64,000 nt of DNA. Origin: a virus. Its lineage: Duplodnaviria; Caudoviricetes. Below the pieces are notes generated by a model. It did no database searches. It saw only the letters and a list, made by a program, of their open reading frames with translations, and was not told where the DNA came from. Below are positions 11,497-64,000 of the stretch, in pieces. Position 1 is the first letter of the stretch; the number at the start of each line of letters is the position of its first letter. The stretch covers positions 79,915 through 143,914 of the IMG/VR virus record IMGVR_UViG_3300029305_005443; one strand, given 5' to 3'. A program made the position numbers and the translations under genes.

Positions 11497-11521
11497 CAAA
11501 GCATAAATTATGTAATATAAT
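11493..11521 (+). promoter_or_regulatory. Consensus sigmaA promoter upstream of the suppressor tRNA / RNA ligase unit
   Basis: TTGACA-17nt-TATAAT. Confidence 0.8.
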
Positions 11522-11547
11522 AAAATTATAAATTAATGGGAATTTAG

Positions 11548-11718
11548 ATGACTGAAGTAAAATATAAAGTTGGTGACAAAACATTTTTAGAATATCCAGC
11601 TGCAAAGGAATATTCTTTACAAACTCACAATGAAATAAAAACAGAATACATTGAACATTGGAATTATAATTATAAAGAATATAATGAGGATATGATACAC
11701 ACGGCATCAAAAAATTAA
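11548..11718 (+). CDS. Hypothetical 56-aa protein
   Basis: MTEVKYKVGDKTFLEYPAAKEYS.., downstream of the promoter. Confidence 0.6.
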   Translation: MTEVKYKVGDKTFLEYPAAKEYSLQTHNEIKTEYIEHWNYNYKEYNEDMIHTASKN

Positions 11719-11834
11719 CCTCCTTTCTCAAAGATGCCCAAAAGAAATTTAACCAAGCATTTTCTCTGCTAAATTAAAAATTCATTTTTTGTTCCTTCTT
11801 GTCCTGCAGTTCTTTGTGCTTGTTTACATAATAT

Positions 11835-11922
11835 TCCCCCTTCGCCTAGTGGTAGGGCGCCGGTCTCTAAAACCGTTATACCTTTTGATGGGGTTGCCTG
11901 GGTTCAAATCCCAGAGGGGGTG
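11835..11922 (+). tRNA. Amber suppressor tRNA (anticodon CTA) with long variable arm
   Basis: Acceptor TCCCCCT/AGGGGGT-G, D arm GCCT-AGTGGTA-GGGC, anticodon arm CGGT-CTCTAAA-ACCG (CTA 11867-11869), T arm CTGGG-TTCAAAT-CCCAG. Confidence 0.9.
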
Positions 11923-11927
11923 TTCAA

Positions 11928-12001
11928 TGGGATGTAGCGCAGCAGGTTAGCGCGTCGGTCTTATAAACCGCAGGTCATGGGTTCGAGTCCCATCATCCCT
12001 A
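11928..12001 (+). tRNA. tRNA-Ile(TAT)
   Basis: Cloverleaf; anticodon arm CGGT-CTTATAA-ACCG; T arm ATGGG-TTCGAGT-CCCAT. Confidence 0.85.
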
Positions 12002-12003
12002 TT

Positions 12004-12073
12004 CAGAATCTTGGATGCAGTAGTTCTTATTAGAGAATGCTGCATATGCTCTAATTAAAACTCCGGGGTTCTG
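12004..12073 (+). ncRNA. Putative structured RNA element upstream of the RNA ligase
   Basis: 12-bp outer stem CAGAATCTTGGA/TCCGGGGTTCTG, inner TGCAGTA/TGCTGCA hairpin, possible ATTAGAG/CTCTAAT pairing. Confidence 0.45.
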
Positions 12074-12104
12074 TAGACAAATCAATTGGTAAAGGGTGCA
12101 AATT

Positions 12105-13325
12105 ATGCTGAATAAAAAGGGAGAAAGAGAGTTAGCATATCTTGTAAAAATAGATGACATTCAGCCAATTGTTGGCTCTGACAACTGCGAGTCCGCTGTT
12201 GTGGGGGCTTGGCATATTATGGTCAAAAAAGGTACATTTAGCGTTGGTGACGTTGCAATCTATTTTGAAATTGATTCTCTTCTTGATATTACTAAACCAG
12301 AGTTTGCTTTTATGGAGAAATATAAAGGCAAAGTAAAGACTCAGCGTTATACTTTCGGCGGTAAAGGAAACTTTATTAGTCAGGGTCTTTTGATGCACCC
12401 GAACGATTTTGGTTGGGTTACTATTATTGATGAGAATGAAATTCAGTATGGTGTTATGACCAATACAAGTAAGCCTGATAGAACCCTCGATAATGAATCG
12501 CGGTTTCTTACAGAACTTCTTGGTGTTAAATATTATGACCCCGCCGATGAACAGAGAAAAGGAACTGGCAAAAAGAAACAGCCTGCTATGCCTAAATTCT
12601 TCTATATGGGAATTGGAAGAAAGATGATGAGAGTAAAATGGCTTAAGCCTATTCTCATTAAGATTTTTGGGAAGAAAGTTAAAGTGACTCCCTGGCCTTA
12701 TTGGGTTGTAAAGACAGATGAGGAGAGGGTTCAGAATATCCCAGATATTATACACCAAGAAGATAAATGGATTGCCACAGAAAAAATTGATGGTTCTTCT
12801 TCTACTTATACTATGATTAGGCACGGTAAGAAATTTGAATTCTATATGTGTTCCAGAAATGTTGTCTTTACAAGTAAAGAAGATAAATGTTATTATGATT
12901 CCAACATTTATGTTGAAATTGCTTCAAAATATCCATTTGAAGAAACATTGAAGAAGTACCTTATCGAAAATAAAGATGTTGATTGGGTTACAATACAGGG
13001 AGAAATCTATGGACAAGGTGTTCAAAAAAGAGATTATTCTATCGACCACAAGGACTTCGTCGCCTTCAATCTAATTGACTCAAAGAGGGGAAGGTGGAAT
13101 TCTTGCGAGGCTAAAGAATGGCTTTCTCAATTTGGAATCCCGTTTGTCCCAATCCTTAATGACTCTTTTGAAATGCCGGATACAGTAGATGAACTTCTTG
13201 AATTCGTAAACGGAAATTCTGTGTTAGATGGAAAGCCAAGAGAAGGATTTGTTTTTAGAAGCAAAGACGGAATTAAGAGTTTCAAAGCTGTTAGTAATGA
13301 GTACCTTTTAAAATATCATTCATAA
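12105..13325 (+). CDS. ATP-dependent RNA ligase, DRB0094/Rnl2-like family
   Basis: N-terminal LAYLVKIDDIQPI..DVAIYFEIDSLL..SQGLL; nucleotidyltransferase motifs TEKIDGSS, QGEIYG, FVAFNL, REGFVFR, SFKAVSNEYLLK; no TAG. Confidence 0.9.
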   Translation: MLNKKGERELAYLVKIDDIQPIVGSDNCESAVVGAWHIMVKKGTFSVGDVAIYFEIDSLLDITKPEFAFMEKYKGKVKTQRYTFGGKGNFISQGLLMHPNDFGWVTIIDENEIQYGVMTNTSKPDRTLDNESRFLTELLGVKYYDPADEQRKGTGKKKQPAMPKFFYMGIGRKMMRVKWLKPILIKIFGKKVKVTPWPYWVVKTDEERVQNIPDIIHQEDKWIATEKIDGSSSTYTMIRHGKKFEFYMCSRNVVFTSKEDKCYYDSNIYVEIASKYPFEETLKKYLIENKDVDWVTIQGEIYGQGVQKRDYSIDHKDFVAFNLIDSKRGRWNSCEAKEWLSQFGIPFVPILNDSFEMPDTVDELLEFVNGNSVLDGKPREGFVFRSKDGIKSFKAVSNEYLLKYHS

Positions 13326-13363
13326 ATTTTTAGAGAGTTGAGGCGGTGGATATACTCTCGTTT

Positions 13364-13436
13364 GTGTCTGTGGCACAGTGGACAGCGCAACGGACTTCTA
13401 ATCCGTGGGTCGGGGGTTCGAATCCCTTCAGACACA
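13364..13436 (+). tRNA. tRNA-Arg(TCT)
   Basis: GTGTCTG/CAGACAC acceptor; ACGGA-CTTCTAA-TCCGT. Confidence 0.92.
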
Positions 13437-13459
13437 ATTACAATTATGAATAAGTTTGT

Positions 13460-13546
13460 GGAGAGATGCCGAAGTGGACATAACGGCAATGACTTGAAAT
13501 CATTTGTGTGAGAAATCACCCGAGGGTTCGAATCCCTCTCTCTCCG
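13460..13546 (+). tRNA. tRNA-Ser(TGA)
   Basis: GGAGAGA/TCTCTCC-G; AATGA-CTTGAAA-TCATT; long variable arm. Confidence 0.92.
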
Positions 13547-13593
13547 CTCGACGGGCTGTAAGCGTAGGATATTGATTATATCCGAGGCCCGTT

Positions 13594-13640
13594 AAGGCTC
13601 ATACAGCAAAAGTTCTTTTGAGGGATAAAAGACGAGCCTT
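13594..13640 (+). ncRNA. CAGCAA stem-loop RNA E1
   Basis: AAGGCTC-ATA-CAGCAA..inner hairpin..GAGCCTT. Confidence 0.7.
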
Positions 13641-13659
13641 GTTTATAGTAAAAGGTTTT

Positions 13660-13745
13660 GGAGAGGTACCCAAGTAGGTGAAGGGGTCAGTTTGCTAAAC
13701 TGATAGACCAGCAATGGTGCAAGAGTTCGAACCTCTTTCTCTCCG
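13660..13745 (+). tRNA. tRNA-Ser(GCT)
   Basis: GGAGAGG/TCTCTCC-G; TCAGT-TTGCTAA-ACTGA; long variable arm. Confidence 0.92.
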
Positions 13746-13747
13746 TT

Positions 13748-13812
13748 AAGGCTCCTGCAGCAACTAATTCATGCCAGTAGCGTTCTGTCATTGGTTCAAG
13801 TCCGATACCGAG
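13748..13812 (+). ncRNA. CAGCAA RNA E2, truncated, with T arm
   Basis: AAGGCTC-CTG-CAGCAA, then ATTGG-TTCAAGT-CCGAT nearly identical to the E6 T arm; no closing strand. Confidence 0.55.
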
Positions 13813-13817
13813 TATAG

Positions 13818-13890
13818 GGGGCTGTAGCTCAGTTGGGAGAGCGCCTGATCTGCAATCAGGAGGCAGTGGGTTCGAACCCCATCAGCTCCA
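13818..13890 (+). tRNA. tRNA-Ala(TGC)
   Basis: GGGGCTG/CAGCTCC-A with G3:U70; CCTGA-TCTGCAA-TCAGG (atypical C33). Confidence 0.9.
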
Positions 13891-13972
13891 CTCTTGCAAA
13901 GGGCATAAATAGGAATCATGCGTAGGATTTTTCTGTTGGTCTTTTGCAACGAAAGAAAAAAGACCGAACCAG

Positions 13973-14056
13973 GCATAGGTGATGGAACAGGTATACATAG
14001 AGGTCTTAAAAACCTCTGCCAGATATGGATTAAGGGTTCAAATCCCTTCCTATGCA
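13973..14056 (+). tRNA. tRNA-Leu(TAA)
   Basis: GCATAGG/CCTATGC-A; GAGGT-CTTAAAA-ACCTC. Confidence 0.92.
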
Positions 14057-14126
14057 CTTTGTTGAAAAACAAATGTTCTATAGAAACTGTTTAGGATTGA
14101 GGGTTCGAGTCCGACACGAAGCATCT

Positions 14127-14210
14127 GCGAAAGTGGTGGAATCGGCAGACGCATCAGACTCAAAATCTGACGATAGAAATATCGTGTGAGTTCAAGTCTC
14201 ACCTTTCGCA
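14127..14210 (+). tRNA. tRNA-Leu(CAA)
   Basis: GCGAAAG/CTTTCGC-A; TCAGA-CTCAAAA-TCTGA. Confidence 0.92.
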
Positions 14211-14229
14211 TAATTTATTAAAAAAGTTG

Positions 14230-14266
14230 TTGACAAATTTCTATTTTGTGATATATTGTATATAAT
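14230..14266 (+). promoter_or_regulatory. Promoter region (TTGACA plus TTGTATATAAT motif)
   Basis: TTGACA 14230, TG-N-TATATT at 16-nt spacing, overlapping TTGTATATAA 14256. Confidence 0.6.
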
Positions 14267-14294
14267 GAAACACAAATAAAGGAAGTAGTTAATA

Positions 14295-14402
14295 ATGTTT
14301 ACTTTATTTTTAATTTGTTCAATGATTATTTCTTCTAAATCCAGAAGCAAAGAAGAGATTCTTCTCGAAGATATTGAACAGTTGAAATCAATTCATAAAT
14401 AA
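14295..14402 (+). CDS. Putative 35-aa peptide with hydrophobic N-terminus
   Basis: AAGGAAG RBS, ATG..TAA. Confidence 0.45.
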   Translation: MFTLFLICSMIISSKSRSKEEILLEDIEQLKSIHK

Positions 14403-14406
14403 AATA

Positions 14407-14480
14407 CGGGGCGTGGCTCAACTTGGTAGAGCGCGCGGTTTGGGACCGTGAGGTTGTGGGTTCAAATCCCGCCGCCCCGA
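14407..14480 (+). tRNA. tRNA-Pro(TGG)
   Basis: CGGGGCG/CGCCCCG-A; CGCGG-TTTGGGA-CCGTG. Confidence 0.92.
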
Positions 14481-14481
14481 C

Positions 14482-15036
14482 TGGTATATGAGTTCATGGT
14501 AACACTCAGTATACCAAGTGCAAAGGTACCCCCACTTACGAAACGTACCTTAGAACAGGATAATGCAAGGGATAAACTGTTCAACACTTTTTTGTGGTGA
14601 TATTAAATGGACACCTCTGATAGCGACTAAAAACTGTAGCCAAGTGCAAGGTTCAACTCCTTGAATATCACCTTAGAGGTGTTATGAGCCCCAGTCGAAA
14701 AATCATAGGTAGATTCCTTCCTGAACAGAATAGCAAGCCGAGGCCCGGGCACGTCAAGACAGGGCTGGTTTGGGGATTGTACCACAAATCCTTCGCTGAG
14801 AACTCCGGCGTCCAATGAGTTTCAGCGGTGCCACCCCGCTTATGGCTGACTACCAAGGTGGTATATATTTACTTGGGACTTATAGGGTCTAGTCCCCCCA
14901 ACTTATGGTGAGACTTCCCACCTTAAGAGAAGCGCATCAGTTAAGGGATGCATAGCCTTAACAACAACCTATCCCCAATAAGCGATGAGCCGTAGGTTGG
15001 TTTAAGTGTTGTATAACGAAAAGGGATAAGACACAC
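14482..15036 (+). ncRNA. Candidate large structured ncRNA (or array of small ones) between tRNA-Pro and tRNA-Asn
   Basis: GC-rich, no credible ORF, about ten successive hairpins with GU pairs and a tRNA-like acceptor/T domain at 14596-14672. Confidence 0.6.
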
Positions 15037-15040
15037 ATAA

Positions 15041-15112
15041 TGCCCAGTAGCTCAATGGCAGAGCATCCGGCTGTTAACCGGAGGGTTGTAAGTTCGAGTC
15101 TTACCTGGGCAG
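15041..15112 (+). tRNA. tRNA-Asn(GTT)
   Basis: TGCCCAG/CTGGGCA-G; TCCGG-CTGTTAA-CCGGA. Confidence 0.92.
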
Positions 15113-15225
15113 TATCCCCGAAATAACTTTTGTGGTTTCATATTTCCGGGATATGTGCTTAATTATTTCAGTAGCAATAAAGGTAAGATAAGATTACCTC
15201 CTTTCTTTATCCGGAAACCACATTT

Positions 15226-15297
15226 GCCGCAATGGCTCAATGGCAGAGCAGCTCACTTGTAATGAGCAGGTTGATGGTTCGACTCCGTCTTGCGGCT
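15226..15297 (+). tRNA. tRNA-Thr(TGT)
   Basis: GCCGCAA/TTGCGGC-T; GCTCA-CTTGTAA-TGAGC. Confidence 0.92.
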
Positions 15298-15347
15298 TAG
15301 GCACTGACAGCATAATTTTTAGGACTGAAAATCTTAAGTTGTGCCTT
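15298..15347 (+). ncRNA. CAGCA stem-loop RNA E3 with Phe(GAA)-like anticodon loop
   Basis: TAGGCAC-TGA-CAGCAT..TTAGGA-CTGAAAA-TCTTAA..GTGCCTT. Confidence 0.7.
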
Positions 15348-15358
15348 GTTACTTTAAA

Positions 15359-15422
15359 AAGACGCTTGCAGCAATTACTTCTAAACATTTGAGTTGTAAT
15401 CAAAATTGGTTAATGGCGTCTT
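15359..15422 (+). ncRNA. CAGCAA stem-loop RNA E4 with Thr(TGT)-like anticodon loop
   Basis: AAGACGC-TTG-CAGCAA..TTTGA-GTTGTAA-TCAAA..GCGTCTT. Confidence 0.7.
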
Positions 15423-15448
15423 GGTGCGTATTTAGAAAGAGGTTTGAG

Positions 15449-16996
15449 ATGAGTTTTTTAGATAACTTAAAAAATGAAAATAACTTAACATTTACTGAGA
15501 ATGGTGCTGTTGCATTATCTTCTACAATGAATGCTTGTTTGGATGCTTTTGGCTCTCTTGGAGCTATGAAAAACTCCAATGAAAGTGTTATTCTTGATAC
15601 TTTCAAGAAAGCATTTGCAGAAGATAGAAAACTTGCCATGAAGATTCTTTTCTATATGAGGGATGCCCGTGGCGGTCAGGGTATGCGCAGGGTTTTTAGG
15701 ACTATTGTTACTTATCTTGCAAACAATCACCCTGAGTTTGTTGAGAACAATTTTAAGAATTTTGCAGAGTATGGAAGATGGGACGATTTTCTTTGTTTGT
15801 TGGATACTGATCTTAAAGAAAATGTTTTGTCCTATATTAAATCACAACTTCTTGAAGATGTTTGCAACTGGTACGATAATAAGCCAGTTTCTCTTCTTGC
15901 AAAGTGGCTTCCTTCTGAGAATGCATCTTCTCAGAAAACTATTGAAACAGCCAAAACCATTAGGAAATATTTGGGGTGGTCTCCGAGATCCTATCGTAAA
16001 ACCCTCTCTAAGCTTCGCAATTATTTGAATGTTGTTGAAGTTAAAATGTCTTCCAATGAATGGAACAAAATTGATTATGCATCTGTTCCTGGTAAAGCAT
16101 CACTTAATTATTCTGATGCCTTTACAAAACACGATGAAGAAAGATATATTAATTTCCTTATAAATACTTCTTCGCTCAATGCAAATGCACTTTTCCCGGT
16201 AGACATTATACATAAAGTTATTGAATTAAATAATAGAAGAAAATGCTCGAGCAAGGATAGGATCTTGCTTGATAAGATGTGGAAATCTCTTCCAAATTAT
16301 CTTGAAGGCAAAGAAGAAACAGGCATTTGCATGGTAGATACGTCGGGTTCTATGTATGGGACTCCGTATGAAGTGGCTCTTTCTCTTGGCATTTATTGCG
16401 CTGATAAGTGTAAAGGACCTTTTAAGAATCATTTCATCACCTTCAGTGAAAATCCTGAGCTTGTATCCTTGCAAGGGGCAGACCTTGTTGAGAAAGTTTC
16501 TAATATTAGATGCATCAATGCTGGAAACACTAACTTTGAAGCAGCTCTTGATTTAATTCTAGACACTGCTGTGAAGTATGGAACCCCTCAGGAAGATCTT
16601 CCTAGTAAGTTATATGTAATTTCTGATATGCAGTTTGATGTGGCAAGGTGCGAGCGGCATTACACTGGCTGGTCCTTCAAGTATACGCCTACTGAGCCAT
16701 TTATGGAAAAAATGCGTAGAAAATATGAGGCACACGGTTACAAGCTTCCGTCCATTGTATATTGGAATGTTCGCGCATCTGAATGCGGAATGTTTCAGCA
16801 AAAATTCGATGGTGAAGATTGCGCCATGGTTAGTGGGTATTCAGCTTCGTTATTCAAATCCATTATTGAGGGTACCACTTATGAGGAGGTGGTTTCTGAA
16901 GATGGTAAGTCAACTAAGAGAGAAAAAATTGACCCTCTCACTGTTATGTTGACAACCCTTAATAATCCCAGGTACGATAAAGTCTGGGTCGGATAA
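15449..16996 (+). CDS. DUF2828 family protein (TROVE/Ro60-like helical domain + vWA)
   Basis: TENGA, FYMRDARGGQGMRRVF, YGRWDD, AKWLPSE, MIDAS-like VDTSGSM, NTNF, VISDMQFD, IVYWNVR, VSGYS; GAGGT RBS; no TAG. Confidence 0.88.
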   Translation: MSFLDNLKNENNLTFTENGAVALSSTMNACLDAFGSLGAMKNSNESVILDTFKKAFAEDRKLAMKILFYMRDARGGQGMRRVFRTIVTYLANNHPEFVENNFKNFAEYGRWDDFLCLLDTDLKENVLSYIKSQLLEDVCNWYDNKPVSLLAKWLPSENASSQKTIETAKTIRKYLGWSPRSYRKTLSKLRNYLNVVEVKMSSNEWNKIDYASVPGKASLNYSDAFTKHDEERYINFLINTSSLNANALFPVDIIHKVIELNNRRKCSSKDRILLDKMWKSLPNYLEGKEETGICMVDTSGSMYGTPYEVALSLGIYCADKCKGPFKNHFITFSENPELVSLQGADLVEKVSNIRCINAGNTNFEAALDLILDTAVKYGTPQEDLPSKLYVISDMQFDVARCERHYTGWSFKYTPTEPFMEKMRRKYEAHGYKLPSIVYWNVRASECGMFQQKFDGEDCAMVSGYSASLFKSIIEGTTYEEVVSEDGKSTKREKIDPLTVMLTTLNNPRYDKVWVG

Positions 16997-17008
16997 CAAT
17001 AAAATATT

Positions 17009-17062
17009 AAGGCAGTCACAGCAAGTTTATAAAAATGCTTTGAATGTTTATAATACTGCCTT
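17009..17062 (+). ncRNA. CAGCAA stem-loop RNA E5 with Gln(TTG)-like anticodon loop
   Basis: AAGGCAG-TCA-CAGCAA..AAATG-CTTTGAA-TGTTT..CTGCCTT. Confidence 0.7.
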
Positions 17063-17074
17063 GAACATAAACAA

Positions 17075-17208
17075 TAAACCCTAACAGCAATTCTATTTGA
17101 GGTTATAGTTAACTTTTCTTGTCATTGGTTCGAGTCCAATCTCATATTGCGAGCACGCTCACATTATGAGTAGCACAGTTGGTAGTGCAAAAAGGGAAAA
17201 TGGGTTTA
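17075..17208 (+). ncRNA. Y-RNA (YrlA)-like RNA E6: CAGCAA stem enclosing a circularly permuted tRNA domain
   Basis: TAAACCC-TAA-CAGCAA..CTTTT, T arm ATTGG-TTCGAGT-CCAAT, loop-closed acceptor CTCATA/TATGAG, D arm GCAC-AGTTGGTA-GTGC, AAAAG..GGGTTTA. Confidence 0.85.
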
Positions 17209-17218
17209 GTAAAAACAA

Positions 17219-17273
17219 AAGACGGATACAGCAATCATTTATAATCAAAGCTACTGGATTTAAATTCCGTCTT
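17219..17273 (+). ncRNA. CAGCAA stem-loop RNA E7
   Basis: AAGACGG-ATA-CAGCAA..inner AU hairpin..CCGTCTT. Confidence 0.7.
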
Positions 17274-17279
17274 GATTTT

Positions 17280-17353
17280 AGGGGTTTCGGCAAGTGGTTC
17301 AAGCCAACGGACTTTGACTCCGTGACTCAGTAGTTCGAATCTACTAACCCCTG
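17280..17353 (+). tRNA. tRNA-Gln(TTG)
   Basis: AGGGGTT/AACCCCT-G; ACGGA-CTTTGAC-TCCGT. Confidence 0.92.
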
Positions 17354-17394
17354 CTGCACTGTTCGTTCATTGTGCAACCTCCTTTCTTTTTTCT

Positions 17395-17429
17395 GGCAAG
17401 CATCTGAAATATGGTGCTTGCCTATTTTT
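17395..17429 (+). terminator. Intrinsic terminator ending the RNA island
   Basis: GGCAAGCATC-loop-GGTGCTTGCC followed by TATTTTT. Confidence 0.8.
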
Positions 17430-17434
17430 GATTG

Positions 17435-17463
17435 TTGACAAGTTTAATAAAGTGATTTATAAT
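17435..17463 (+). promoter_or_regulatory. Consensus sigmaA promoter
   Basis: TTGACA-17nt-TATAAT. Confidence 0.8.
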
Positions 17464-17491
17464 AATATTATCAAATGAGGGAGGTTTCAAA

Positions 17492-17749
17492 ATGTCATAT
17501 TACATTTCTATTGATGAAGAAAATAACATTTACAATCATCTTTGTGAAAATGGAATTTATGTCAGTGTTTATTCAAAAGAAGATTGTGTTGCAATTGACA
17601 TTAGTTGGGGTGATTGGAAACACGAACATTTAGCTTGTTCTTGGGTGATGGAAGAACTGGGGTACTATCAGTTTAATCAAACTGTAACAGAAGAAGATGG
17701 GTCGGATTGTTATTCTGCAATTCATTATTATAAAAAGGAGGCAGCGTAA
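17492..17749 (+). CDS. Conserved phage hypothetical protein (WGDWKHEH..DGSDCYSAIH)
   Basis: GGAGGT RBS. Confidence 0.8.
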   Translation: MSYYISIDEENNIYNHLCENGIYVSVYSKEDCVAIDISWGDWKHEHLACSWVMEELGYYQFNQTVTEEDGSDCYSAIHYYKKEAA

Positions 17750-63150: not shown

Positions 63151-63447
63151 ATGGCTACAAAGAATCTTGTCGAAGCTTACAAGAATCGTATCAATGTTGC
63201 TGATGCTTATCATGCTCAGACACACAATGGTCAAAAGATGGATTCTTACAAGAAGCTTCTCATTGCTAACTCTCTTAACAATGTTTCTCGTTTTATGAAC
63301 GAGGCTTTTGAGCAATCTGCTGGTACACAACGCGCTGCCCTCGGCGATTATAAGCGTTTCTGCCTTACACTTACCACTCTTGCTCTTCCAAATATGATTG
63401 CTCCAGAAATCGTGCTTACAGTCCCAATGGCTTCAAGAACAGGATAT
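63151..63447 (+). CDS. Major capsid protein (T4 gp23-like), exon 1
   Basis: Follows protease/scaffold; LPNMIAPEIVLTVPMASRTGY resembles gp23 PNLIA..VQPM..PTG; interrupted by intron. Confidence 0.85.
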
Positions 63448-64000
63448 AAAATGTAATGTATCCCTAATATGGTAACATATTAGAAAATAACCTTGTTAAT
63501 TGCTGGAAACTCCGAAAGGACAATCAGCAGCCAAGCCCCAAAACTGGGGAAGGTTCAACGACTATCGAAAGCATAGCATTGAAGAAATATCAATGTGAAG
63601 AAGTGAGTAGAGTAGGGGTTCGCTCCGAAAGACAAGGCATCCAATAAAGGTTAAAACAATGTTGGATGATAATATAGTCTGAACATTATAGAAATATAGT
63701 GAGTTTGGCATTACTAATGAATAGCCTACTTCTGCATCCATAAGTGCAGATTTTATCCAAATCAATTCAATCTTTTATGGAGGATTATATGACAAAAGAA
63801 TAGAAGTGTTCTGAATCGCAATTAGGAAGAGTTGTGATCCACAAGGGTGACTTTGAAAAAAGGGTGCTTCCTTAGGAATTAGATACATATTTCTCTAATG
63901 GATGGTTGACGGGTGTCTCAGAAAAACATCGTAAAAGTAGGTCTAATAGGAAGGGAAGTTGCAATGGAAAAAACAAAATCTTCAAAGAAGATGTCATTAA
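63448..64000 (+). mobile_element. Group I self-splicing intron (3' end beyond window)
   Basis: P1 GGATAT/GTATCC with U.G splice pair; P AATTGCTGGAAAC, Q AATCAGCAG, R GTTCAACGACTA, S AATATAGTCT; P3 CCTTGTT/GACAAGG; P8 CATCCAATA/TGTTGGATG. Confidence 0.92.
63789..64000 (+). CDS. Intron-encoded putative homing endonuclease, 3' partial, 2 TAGs
   Basis: GGAGG RBS; MTKE[TAG]KCSESQLGRVVIHKGDFEKRVLP[TAG]ELDTYFSNGW resembles NUMOD-type DNA-binding modules; nuclease domain not in window. Confidence 0.65.

What the first reader, a model, noticed from the sequence alone, without database searches (positions are those of the whole stretch)
17075..17208. Circularly permuted tRNA domain (YrlA architecture) inside a CAGCAA RNA
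Seen: the order is anticodon-stem 3' strand (CTTTT), T arm (ATTGG-TTCGAGT-CCAAT), acceptor stem closed by a loop (CTCATA..GAGC-AC-GCTC..TATGAG), TA, D arm (GCAC-AGTTGGTA-GTGC), A, anticodon-stem 5' strand (AAAAG), all enclosed by the CAGCAA stem. Known: bacterial YrlA Y RNAs have this T-acceptor-D order, with the protein-binding stem in place of the anticodon arm. This is the strongest evidence that the CAGCAA family are Y-RNA analogues, yet the partner here is not a canonical Rsr.
Basis: partly seen in the sequence, partly recalled or inferred. Interest (0 to 1): 0.9.

Follow-up and report, generated by a model that had tools for sequence, protein, structure and literature searches.

The report
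Phage Y-like RNA with tRNA mimic
This 135-nt phage RNA carries a rearranged tRNA look-alike inside a conserved "handle", sits right behind a gene for a Ro60-shaped protein, and belongs to a widespread phage RNA family that I found in neither Rfam nor the papers searched.

Summary
The order is handle stem, CAGCAA box, inner stem, T arm, loop-closed acceptor-like hairpin, UA, D arm. Rfam's YrlA model matches the tRNA-like core at 29.9 bits (E 1e-5 in the 144-kb phage record), well below its gathering score of 69.

A covariance model built from 36 relatives without this window scores the element at 78.1 bits (E 4e-14). In 35 relatives, 94% of cells pair and 23 of 25 pairs show compensatory changes. 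The tertiary 15:48 pair, which the model does not include, switches between G:C and A:U.

The gene ending 78 nt upstream (DUF2828 plus a vWA domain) has no Pfam TROVE match. Its predicted fold matches Ro60 first (Z 11-15 over about 400 residues).

The handle and the gene travel together:
- 103 model hits on the gene strand and none on the opposite strand in 80 loci.
- A Ro-like gene in 19 of 19 near-complete phage records that were found by the RNA pattern alone.

Best reading: a Y-RNA analogue of a second Ro-like lineage. It is not a member of YrlA. Protein binding is inferred, not shown. This scan has reported the same family before on other DNA. The handle also matches Dictyostelium Class I RNAs.

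The parts
17075..17081 (+). Handle, 5' strand (TAAACCC) of the 7-bp closing stem
   Evidence: Pairs with 17202-17208. In 35 relatives this helix is 97% paired and all 7 pairs show compensatory changes.
17082..17090 (+). Three nucleotides (TAA) plus the invariant single-stranded CAGCAA box
   Evidence: C11, A12, G13 and C14 are invariant in alignments A2 and A3. The spacing of 7 + 3 nt before the box is the same in the relatives.
17091..17112 (+). Variable linker between the box and the inner stem
   Evidence: Its length and sequence vary among relatives.
17113..17117 (+). Inner stem, 5' strand (CTTTT). Equivalent to tRNA positions 39-43, the 3' strand of the anticodon stem.
   Evidence: Pairs with 17190-17194. 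This helix is 87% paired in relatives and all 5 pairs show compensatory changes.
17118..17123 (+). Variable-loop equivalent (CTTGTC). Its last C corresponds to position 48.
   Evidence: C48 can pair with G15 (17178). The 15:48 pair covaries in the family: G:C 17, A:U 14, other 4.
17124..17140 (+). T arm: ATTGG / TTCGAGT / CCAAT
   Evidence: Matched by the YrlA model. The T loop is TTCRANY in 34 of the 35 aligned relatives (the 35th is an alignment shift). The helix is 99% paired and 4 of 5 pairs are compensatory.
17141..17170 (+). Acceptor-stem-like hairpin closed by a loop (CTCATA...TATGAG, with an inner GAG/CTC helix)
   Evidence: The helix base is 93% paired with all 4 modelled pairs compensatory, and hairpin length ranges from 16 to 70 nt among relatives.
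17171..17188 (+). U8-A9 equivalent (TA) and D arm GCAC / AGTTGGTA / GTGC
   Evidence: YrlA model alignment. U8 and A14 are present in 35 of 35 relatives, and most D loops contain GG.
17189..17194 (+). Position-26 A and the inner stem 3' strand (AAAAG)
17202..17209 (+). Handle, 3' strand (GGGTTTA) plus the conserved trailing G
   Evidence: The trailing G is present in 35 of 35 relatives.
15449..16996 (+). Gene for the 515-aa DUF2828 + DUF7788 (vWA) protein, the Ro60-like presumed partner. Its stop codon lies 78 nt before the RNA.
   Evidence: Pfam E 4e-35 and 2e-42. PHROG 850 'RNA-binding protein'. AF2 model pLDDT 82.5. Ro60/TROVE entries fill the top 13 Foldseek hits and the top 10 VIA hits, Z 11.2-15.1.
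13594..13641 (+). Sibling handle RNA with short cargo
   Evidence: Grammar scan. R2 model 26.9 bits.
15359..15423 (+). Sibling handle RNA, 26 nt upstream of the DUF2828 start codon
   Evidence: Grammar scan. R2 model 29.1 bits.
17009..17063 (+). Sibling handle RNA directly after the DUF2828 stop codon
   Evidence: Grammar scan.
17219..17274 (+). Sibling handle RNA between this element and tRNA-Gln
   Evidence: Grammar scan. R2 model 31.9 bits.
17280..17354 (+). tRNA-Gln (TTG), the last gene of the apparent transcription unit
   Evidence: ARAGORN and Rfam.
17395..17422 (+). Intrinsic-terminator-like hairpin followed by a T run. It is followed by a perfect sigma-70-type promoter at 17435-17463.
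   Evidence: It is the only + strand terminator-like site in 11500-17700.
12105..13325 (+). RNA ligase gene in the same tRNA island (context)
   Evidence: Pfam RNA_ligase E 5e-21 plus PHA02142 OB domain. PHROG 968.

Best explanation
Positions 17075-17209 encode a roughly 135-nt modular non-coding RNA that works like a Y RNA.

**Module 1, the handle.** It is a 7-bp closing stem, 3 nt, a single-stranded CAGCAA box and a trailing G. I infer that it is the binding site for the Ro60-shaped DUF2828/vWA protein whose gene ends 78 nt upstream.

**Module 2, the tRNA-like domain.** It is circularly permuted. It has a T arm, an acceptor-like hairpin, U8-A9, a D arm and the two anticodon-stem strands. The anticodon loop is replaced by the handle. 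I infer that it folds into the tRNA elbow and offers the particle to a tRNA-recognising factor. That factor could be a repair or processing enzyme, or a host anti-phage tRNA nuclease for which the RNA acts as bait.

**Expression.** The RNA is probably cut out of a polycistronic transcript that runs from the DUF2828 gene through three handle RNAs and tRNA-Gln to the terminator at 17395-17422.

**Shown here:** the structure, its conservation and covariation, the elbow signature, the Ro60-like fold of the protein, and the tight genomic linkage.

**Inferred:** the protein-RNA contact, the processing, and the identity of the tRNA-binding partner.
For: **Structure**
- The YrlA model matches in the T, acceptor-stem, D order at 29.9 bits, the best hit in the genome.
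- The leave-one-out model R2 gives 78.1 bits, E 3.8e-14.
- In 35 relatives, 94.4% of cells pair against 63% in shuffles and about 40% when the partners are slid. 23 of 25 pairs show compensatory changes.

**Elbow**
- The 15:48 Levitt pair is not part of the model, yet it is G:C in 17 relatives and A:U in 14, out of 35.
- U8 and A14 are invariant.
- The T loop is TTCRANY.

**Partner protein**
- The AF2 model has pLDDT 82.5 and pTM 0.81.
- Ro60/TROVE chains fill the top 13 Foldseek hits and the top 10 VIA hits (Z 11.2-15.1, 389-416 residues aligned). Hits to the vWA domain alone stop at Z 8.2.
- The MIDAS residues D297, S299 and S301 are invariant.

**Linkage**
- The grammar scan gives 164 hits on the gene strand against 4 on the other strand in 80 DUF2828 loci, and 64 of 80 loci have at least one hit.
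- The covariance model gives 103 hits against 0. None lies inside the gene, and 22 end within 100 nt of the start codon.
- In this 144-kb genome all 5 hits lie within 3.7 kb around the gene.
- Phage records found by the RNA pattern alone carry the gene in 43 of 50 cases, and in 19 of 19 records that are at least 90% complete.

**Range.** The same arrangement occurs in cultured phages of Bacillus, E. coli, Listeria, Mycobacterium, Campylobacter and Staphylococcus. The RNAs are unannotated there.

**Precedent.** Ro60 binds Y RNAs through a terminal stem with a conserved box. YrlA carries a tRNA-like domain (PMC4201824). A phage Ro60 binds phage-encoded Y-like RNAs (PMC12135203).
Against: - No binding, expression or processing data exist for this RNA or for any relative.
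- The element scores far below Rfam's YrlA gathering threshold (29.9 against 69) and lacks the GNCGAAN0-1G box.
- The protein has no Pfam TROVE match and no sequence-level match to solved Ro60 structures.
- Linkage could reflect shared residence in a tRNA and RNA-repair island rather than physical contact.
- The covariation counts were made on an alignment fitted to the model.
- In Dictyostelium, the only protein shown to bind RNAs with the same handle directly is an RRM protein, Rnp1A (PMC7919456), not a Ro-like protein.
- The single-sequence folding energy is unremarkable (z -1.13).
Confidence: 0.7

Rival explanations
1. The handle and the tRNA-like fold are processing or regulatory signals in the polycistronic transcript. 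They could be entry sites for RNase P, RNase Z or RNase E, or an operator for translational control of the DUF2828 mRNA. On this reading there is no stable partner RNA in a particle.
For: - The element lies between a coding gene and a tRNA inside one apparent transcription unit. The only + strand terminator-like site in 11500-17700 follows at 17395.
- 22 handle elements in other phages end within 100 nt of the DUF2828 start codon. In L009-L011 the handle's 3' strand contains the AAGAGG-like ribosome site.
- M. smegmatis YrlA is cleaved by RNase P (PMC4201824).
Against: - Many handle RNAs lie kilobases from the gene, scattered within tRNA arrays.
- The cargoes are elaborate and conserved, with elbow tertiary covariation, which simple cleavage sites would not need.
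- An operator role would still require the protein to bind the handle, so this rival overlaps with the main reading.
Confidence: 0.12
2. The handle RNAs are real small RNAs, but they bind some other protein, such as the phage RNA ligase or a host RNA chaperone or RRM-type protein. The link with DUF2828 is co-inheritance within an RNA-repair island.
For: - In Dictyostelium, RNAs with the same handle are bound directly by the RRM protein Rnp1A (PMC7919456).
- RNA ligases accompany the island here. In Listeria phage LP-083-2 an RtcB-like ligase lies nearby.
Against: - The handle tracks DUF2828 itself. It is on the same strand in all 103 model hits, it directly flanks the gene in phages of very different hosts, and the gene is present in 19 of 19 near-complete genomes found through the RNA alone.
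- Ligase type and presence vary between these phages.
- The protein has the fold of a known Y-RNA binder.
Confidence: 0.12
3. It is a circularly permuted tRNA gene whose transcript is cut and rejoined into a working tRNA, or a decayed tRNA remnant produced by rearrangement in the tRNA cluster.
For: - All tRNA arms except the anticodon loop are present in permuted order.
- An RNA ligase gene is nearby.
- Fragments of T arms occur elsewhere in the cluster, at 13785-13801 and near 14100.
Against: - There is no anticodon loop. The two anticodon-stem strands run into 22-nt and 7-nt linkers and then the handle.
- The acceptor-like hairpin is closed by a loop, has no discriminator or CCA context, and varies from 16 to 70 nt in relatives.
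- Neither ARAGORN nor the Rfam tRNA model calls it.
- A remnant would not keep compensatory changes in five helices across phages of Firmicutes, Proteobacteria and Actinobacteria.
Confidence: 0.04

Closest known systems
YrlA, the tRNA-like Y RNA bound by bacterial and mycobacteriophage Ro60/Rsr (Rfam RF02553; Chen et al. 2014, PMC4201824)
   Same: - Same topology: a closing stem with a conserved 5' box, then an inner stem, then variable loop, T arm, loop-closed acceptor-like hairpin, U8-A9 and D arm.
- Same conserved T-loop and D-loop nucleotides.
- Same G15:C48 / A15:U48 covariation.
- Encoded on the same strand next to a Ro60-fold protein gene.
   Different: - It scores 29.9 bits here, and relatives score 20-39, against a gathering score of 69.
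- The box is CAGCAA placed 3 nt after a 7-bp stem, not GNCGAAN0-1G.
- The partner protein is Pfam DUF2828/DUF7788, not TROVE.
- The same handle also carries quite different cargoes.
Thermus phage phiLo Ro60 with phage-encoded Yrl1 and Yrl2 (PMC12135203; PDB 9KOP, 9L5Y)
   Same: - A phage Ro60-fold protein with small RNAs encoded beside its gene.
- 9KOP and 9L5Y are among the best structural matches to this protein: Z 15.1 and 14.5, with 17-18% identity.
   Different: - phiLo Ro60 is a recognisable Ro60 homologue, and its RNAs carry the CGAA bulge.
- No tRNA-like domain was reported for Yrl1 or Yrl2.
- Binding was shown there by experiment. Here it is not.
Dictyostelium Class I RNAs (Aspegren 2004; Kjellin et al. 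2021, PMC7919456)
   Same: The handle grammar is the same. A short covarying terminal stem is followed by the box at the same spacing. For example, GTTGACCTTA comes before CAGCAA, which is 10 nt, just as 7 + 3 nt do here. A variable body follows, then the 3' stem strand, then (U)G. The paper gives AAG as the conserved start and CUGU as the conserved end. Phage handles typically start AAG and end CUUG(U).
   Different: - Class I RNAs are eukaryotic, 42-65 nt long, and carry no tRNA-like domain.
- They are transcribed from their own DUSE promoters.
- The only direct binder shown is the RRM protein Rnp1A.
- I could not test whether dictyostelids encode a DUF2828 protein.
Ordinary and permuted tRNA genes
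   Same: T arm, D arm, acceptor-like helix, U8, A14, G18-G19 and the 15:48 pair are present.
   Different: There is no anticodon loop and no free acceptor end. tRNA finders do not call it.

Membership tests
YrlA (Rfam RF02553) | Covariance-model score at or above the gathering score (69 bits) | tested here: not met
   29.9 bits, model positions 20-89 of 114. Relatives in other phages score 17.5-39.1 bits and none reaches the cut-off.
YrlA (Rfam RF02553) | tRNA-like domain in the order variable loop, T arm, acceptor-stem hairpin, D arm, with conserved T-loop and D-loop nucleotides | tested here: met
YrlA (Rfam RF02553) | Compensatory G15:C48 or A15:U48 Levitt pair | tested here: met
   G15:C48 in the window. 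In the family: G:C 17, A:U 14, A:C 3, G:U 1.
YrlA (Rfam RF02553) | GNCGAAN0-1G motif near the 5' end (the proposed Rsr contact) | tested here: not met
   Absent from 17075-17112. The 5' box is CAGCAA.
YrlA (Rfam RF02553) | Encoded within 4 kb of a TROVE-domain Ro60 orthologue, on the same strand | tested here: inconclusive
   It lies 78 nt downstream, on the same strand, of a protein with a Ro60-like predicted fold. That protein has no Pfam TROVE match at E <= 0.01.
YrlA (Rfam RF02553) | Carries tRNA modifications (pseudouridine 55, dihydrouridine) and is a substrate of RNase P and the CCA-adding enzyme | not testable with these tools
   Needs wet-lab assays as in PMC4201824.
CAGCAA-handle RNAs linked to DUF2828 (provisional family of this scan) | 7-bp closing stem, 3 nt, CAGC(A/T)A, cargo, complementary strand, G | tested here: met
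CAGCAA-handle RNAs linked to DUF2828 (provisional family of this scan) | Significant score with a model built from other genomes only | tested here: met
   R2 model, 78.1 bits, E 3.8e-14.
CAGCAA-handle RNAs linked to DUF2828 (provisional family of this scan) | Same strand as, and close to, a DUF2828 gene | tested here: met
Ro60 / TROVE proteins (for the partner gene) | Helical-repeat ring followed by a vWA domain with a MIDAS motif | tested here: met
   The AF2 model has helices at 29-279 and a vWA domain at 292-504. Ro60 entries are the top hits over about 400 residues. D297, S299 and S301 are invariant. This rests on a predicted structure, not a solved one.
Ro60 / TROVE proteins (for the partner gene) | Sequence match to Pfam TROVE or to solved Ro60 chains | tested here: not met
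tRNA (RF00005) / permuted tRNA gene | Cloverleaf with a 7-nt anticodon loop and a free acceptor end | tested here: not met
   Not called by ARAGORN or the Rfam tRNA model. No anticodon loop is present.
Dictyostelium Class I RNA | Terminal stem, adjacent 11-nt motif ending in ACAGCAA, conserved 3' end | tested here: met
   The spacing and box are the same as in the DdR sequences from the paper's supplement. In this particular element the stem sequence departs from the usual AAG start.
Dictyostelium Class I RNA | DUSE promoter about 60 nt upstream; length 42-65 nt; dictyostelid genome | tested here: not met
   This is a phage RNA of 135 nt inside a bacterial-type operon.

The most novel reading that the evidence does not exclude
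The CAGCAA handle plus the DUF2828 protein form a second, very large Ro/Y-type ribonucleoprotein lineage. It would be shared by thousands of phages, by bacteria and by eukaryotes, with the long-unexplained Dictyostelium Class I RNAs as its eukaryotic members. In phages the handle would be a general display scaffold. It would present interchangeable tRNA parts: the elbow and acceptor half here, anticodon stem-loop mimics such as Lys-UUU on sibling RNAs, and whole acceptor-less tRNA bodies elsewhere. These parts would trap, sense or redirect host tRNA-cleaving defence nucleases, or recruit repair enzymes.
Probability: 0.3. Interest if true: 0.9.

Novelty: new variant of a known kind. Interest (0 to 1): 0.78.

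Why it matters
- Ro60 and Y RNAs are a classic RNA quality-control particle, but few bacterial and phage examples are understood.
- DUF2828 is a very large protein family of unknown function. It has more than 7,000 relatives in the protein search and occurs in 695 cultured-phage records, including Felix O1-like, A511-like, Tsamsa-like and cluster L phages.
- This element is the clearest bridge between that family's neighbouring small RNAs and true Y RNAs. It has the YrlA-type tRNA mimic on a different handle.
- It therefore gives a testable RNA partner to the protein in easily handled phage-host pairs.
- It points to a phage use of tRNA mimicry in the conflict over tRNA cleavage and repair.
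- Through the shared handle, it offers a concrete hypothesis for the Dictyostelium Class I RNAs.

Tried and rejected
- **Single-protein locus search:** looking for close relatives of the protein in viral contigs found nothing. An alignment of 24 homologues was needed.
- **DNA similarity to cultured phages:** blastn of 15300-17500 gave only two short tRNA-like matches.
- **Rfam:** at gathering thresholds it gives no family for this element or its siblings.
- **Sequence search of solved structures:** a profile of the protein did not reach Ro60. Only fold comparison did.
- **My early scripts:** the first grammar scan used a 6-bp stem and missed true members, because the 'next base is G' test then fell on the wrong base. 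My regex classification of cargo types was unreliable. I replaced both with covariance models.
- **MAFFT alignments:** these misplaced the 3' handle strand of the window sequence. Pair counts were therefore made on model-based alignments, which lean towards the model.
- **Protein Atlas look-up:** it only returned phage DUF2828 clusters and gave no information on eukaryotes.
- **Papers not held:** the supplementary tables of Chen et al. 2014, which list the phages with YrlA, and the Sim et al. 2020 review were not available. I cannot exclude that a few DUF2828-type phages were already listed there.
- **Rejected readings:** I considered a working permuted tRNA and a decayed tRNA remnant and rejected both (see the rival explanations).

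Full report
**Setting.** The window is the last 64 kb of a 143,914-bp IMG/VR phage record estimated to be 94% complete. Positions 11.8-17.4 kb form a tRNA island. It holds 12 tRNA genes, an RNA ligase gene at 12105-13325, and a 515-aa gene at 15449-16996 that matches Pfam DUF2828 and DUF7788, the latter a vWA-type domain. The finding lies 78 nt after that gene's stop codon, on the same strand. One more small element and tRNA-Gln follow. After them comes the only + strand terminator-like hairpin in 11500-17700 (17395-17422), and then a perfect sigma-70-type promoter.

**The observation.**
- TAAACCC (17075-17081) pairs with GGGTTTA (17202-17208), followed by G.
- TAA and CAGCAA follow the 5' strand.
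- CTTTT (17113-17117) pairs with AAAAG (17190-17194).
- Between these lie a 6-nt variable loop, a T arm (ATTGG-TTCGAGT-CCAAT), a 30-nt hairpin whose base is CTCATA/TATGAG, then TA, a D arm (GCAC-AGTTGGTA-GTGC) and A.

This maps one-to-one on tRNA positions 39-48, 49-65, 66-72 and 1-7 joined by a loop, then 8-9, 10-25, 26 and 27-31. The only correction concerns the inner GAGC-AC-GCTC, which cannot close a 2-nt loop. The fold gives GAG/CTC around CACG.

Rfam's YrlA model aligns 17113-17196 in exactly this order. It scores 29.9 bits, with E 1.7e-4 locally and 1e-5 over the whole phage record, where it is the best hit. That is far below the curated threshold of 69 bits. ARAGORN and the tRNA model do not call the element. 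Folding energy alone is unremarkable (z -1.13).

**Relatives.** The protein has more than 7,000 relatives in the protein search. I fetched 80 phage loci that encode one. The YrlA model gave sub-threshold hits (17.5-39.1 bits), many of them full length, in 30 of the first 50 records. Many lie within a few kb of the gene on its strand. When I extracted these hits, they shared the architecture of the window's element, handle included.

A strict grammar scan required a 7-bp stem, 3 nt, CAGC(A/T)A, 15-200 nt of cargo, the complementary strand and then G.
- It found 164 elements on the gene strand of the 80 loci against 4 on the other strand.
- 64 of the 80 loci had at least one.

A covariance model (R1) gave similar results.
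- It found 127 hits. In the 80 gene-oriented loci, 103 were on the gene strand and none on the opposite strand.
- None lay inside the gene, and 22 ended within 100 nt of its start codon.

**Structure support.**
- Thirty-five members carry the T, acceptor-stem, D cargo. On their model-based alignment, 94.4% of cells form standard pairs.
- The figure is 63% in column shuffles and about 40% when partners are slid by 1-3 columns.
- 23 of 25 pairs have changes on both sides, and all five helices are supported. This alignment is fitted to the model, which favours the structure.
- The next test is independent of the model. The nucleotide before the T stem (position 48) and the second D-loop nucleotide (position 15) are G:C in 17 sequences, A:U in 14, A:C in 3 close relatives and G:U in 1.
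- U8 and A14 are invariant, and the T loop is TTCRANY.
- This is the Levitt-pair covariation that Chen et al. used to argue that YrlA folds like tRNA (PMC4201824).
- A second model, built from 36 sequences that exclude this window, scores 17075-17209 at 78.1 bits, E 3.8e-14, with no non-canonical pair.
- Over the whole 144-kb genome the model's five hits all fall within 3.7 kb around the DUF2828 gene.

**The partner protein.** Pfam gives no TROVE match, and a profile search of solved structures does not reach Ro60. The AlphaFold2 model is confident, with pLDDT 82.5 and pTM 0.81. It shows helical repeats at 29-279 and a vWA domain at 292-504.
- Foldseek's top 13 matches are all Ro60/TROVE entries. 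They include Thermus phage phiLo Ro60, Xenopus and human Ro60, and Deinococcus Rsr, with E from 2e-6 to 2e-3 over about 535 columns.
- VIA-align gives these entries Z 11.2-15.1 over 389-416 residues. Matches to the vWA domain alone stop at Z 8.2.
- The MIDAS residues are invariant in the family.
- The likeness is already reflected in annotation. Cluster L mycobacteriophage genes are labelled 'Ro-like RNA binding protein'. RefSeq and PHROG 850 use 'RNA-binding protein'.
- The library search for DUF2828 returned five papers, and none concerns RNA partners.

**Reverse test and cultured phages.** I searched viral contigs with an RNA-only pattern: handle, T loop and 3' strand. It returned 63 loci. 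Of 50 records tested, 43 encode a DUF2828 relative, including all 19 records that are at least 90% complete. The seven without one are fragments, 4-48% complete.

In cultured phages the same RNAs sit unannotated in the gaps next to the gene. Examples with the tRNA-like cargo are:
- Bacillus phage Tsamsa (L179 4239-4362);
- E. coli phage VpaE1 (L180 6365-6490);
- mycobacteriophage Faith1 (L182 5527-5649, directly after its Ro-like gene).

Short-cargo handle RNAs occur in Listeria LP-083-2, Campylobacter F336 and Staphylococcus S-CoN_Ph1. Aeromonas phage Aeh1 gave no clear handle RNA near its gene.

**How it most likely works.** The layout parallels Y RNAs. There is a terminal stem with a conserved single-stranded box that would bind the ring protein, and a second module that would address another factor. 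Three lines of evidence support the handle being the DUF2828 protein's binding site: the strand-specific and position-specific linkage, the near-obligate co-occurrence, and the Ro60-like fold. Handles placed over the gene's own ribosome site in some phages (L009-L011) would fit autoregulation by the same contact.

The tRNA-like module keeps the elbow and an acceptor-like helix but has no anticodon loop. It could dock onto enzymes that read the tRNA elbow. It could also serve as bait for host factors that target tRNA. Sibling RNAs on the same handle display anticodon-loop look-alikes, with CTTTTAA as a recurrent loop, or whole acceptor-less tRNA bodies. This suggests that the system presents tRNA parts. 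RNA ligase genes lie in the island here and near the gene in a Listeria phage, which fits a role in the tRNA damage and repair conflict. These functional steps are inference. Nothing here shows binding, processing or expression.

**Comparison with known systems.**
- *YrlA.* The element works like YrlA but fails two of its defining tests, the model threshold and the GNCGAA box. Its partner also lacks a TROVE match. I therefore file it as a new variant of the Ro/Y kind, not as a YrlA member.
- *Earlier phage work.* Chen et al. searched only genomes with TROVE-annotated proteins. The phiLo study concerns a recognisable Ro60 with CGAA-bulge RNAs.
- *This scan.* It has reported the same handle family with DUF2828 on at least 31 other genomes, with the same reading.
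- *Dictyostelium.* One of those earlier notes pointed to the Dictyostelium Class I RNAs, and I checked it. The paper describes a short covarying terminal stem, an adjacent 11-nt motif, a conserved AAG start and a CUGU end. Its supplement gives the motif as CCTTACAGCAA, with sequences such as GTTGACCTTACAGCAA...GTCAACTG. That places CAGCAA 10 nt from the stem start, as in the phage handles (alignment A7). Whether this reflects common descent, and whether dictyostelids have a DUF2828 protein, I could not test.

**Verdict.** The element is a real, conserved structured RNA (confidence about 0.95). It is most likely the Y-RNA-like partner of a Ro60-like DUF2828 protein (about 0.7).

Noticed in passing
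window 13748-13868: This looks like a chimeric element. A handle 5' strand (AAGGCTC), CTG and CAGCAA are followed by a T arm (ATTGG-TTCAAGT-CCGAT) that runs straight into the complete tRNA-Ala gene (13818-13891). No clear handle 3' strand is present. The models score it 27.9-32.7 bits by borrowing the D arm of tRNA-Ala.
   Followed up: partly
window 14482-15036: About 555 nt between tRNA-Pro and tRNA-Asn have no credible ORF and no Rfam match at E <= 1. This may be an undescribed large structured RNA of the kind found in phage tRNA clusters.
   Followed up: partly
window 11834-11923: A tRNA with a CTA anticodon and a long variable arm, labelled tRNA-Pyl by ARAGORN. It is probably an amber suppressor, which hints at TAG recoding in this phage.
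   Followed up: no
window 63438-63701: A group I intron matches above the Rfam threshold (85.1 bits).
   Followed up: no
L028 2243-2318, L029 2259-2322, L040 2410-2471, L057 725-783, L058 2430-2487, L075 2387-2446, L049 2109-2170, L083 942-1001: Many short-cargo handle RNAs display a hairpin with a 7-nt loop that looks like an anticodon loop. CTTTTAA (Lys-UUU-like) recurs across unrelated phages, and CTGTTAA (Asn-like) also occurs.
   Followed up: partly
L039 1439-1554, L042 1402-1525, L049 914-1038, L105 357-477, L112 1338-1452: These handle RNAs carry an unpermuted tRNA body (D arm, anticodon arm, T arm) in which the handle replaces the acceptor stem. L028 1057-1184 and L089 2208-2334 have the permuted order plus an extra anticodon-like arm.
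   Followed up: no
L009 2418-2493, L010 2419-2493, L011 2431-2493: A handle RNA ends 8 nt before the DUF2828 start codon, and its 3' strand contains the AAGAGG-type ribosome site. This suggests the protein may repress its own translation.
   Followed up: no
Supplement of PMC7919456 (file 56): The authors' discarded outgroup candidates include an Arabidopsis sequence (GTTTTC-ATTA-CAGCAA...GAAAAC-TG) and a Capsaspora sequence with the same handle grammar. The Aeh1 annotation notes that the phage protein resembles an Arabidopsis protein.
   Followed up: no
window 14095-14125: A T-arm-like fragment (GAGGGTTCGAGTCCGAC) lies just upstream of tRNA-Leu(CAA). Its meaning is unknown.
   Followed up: no
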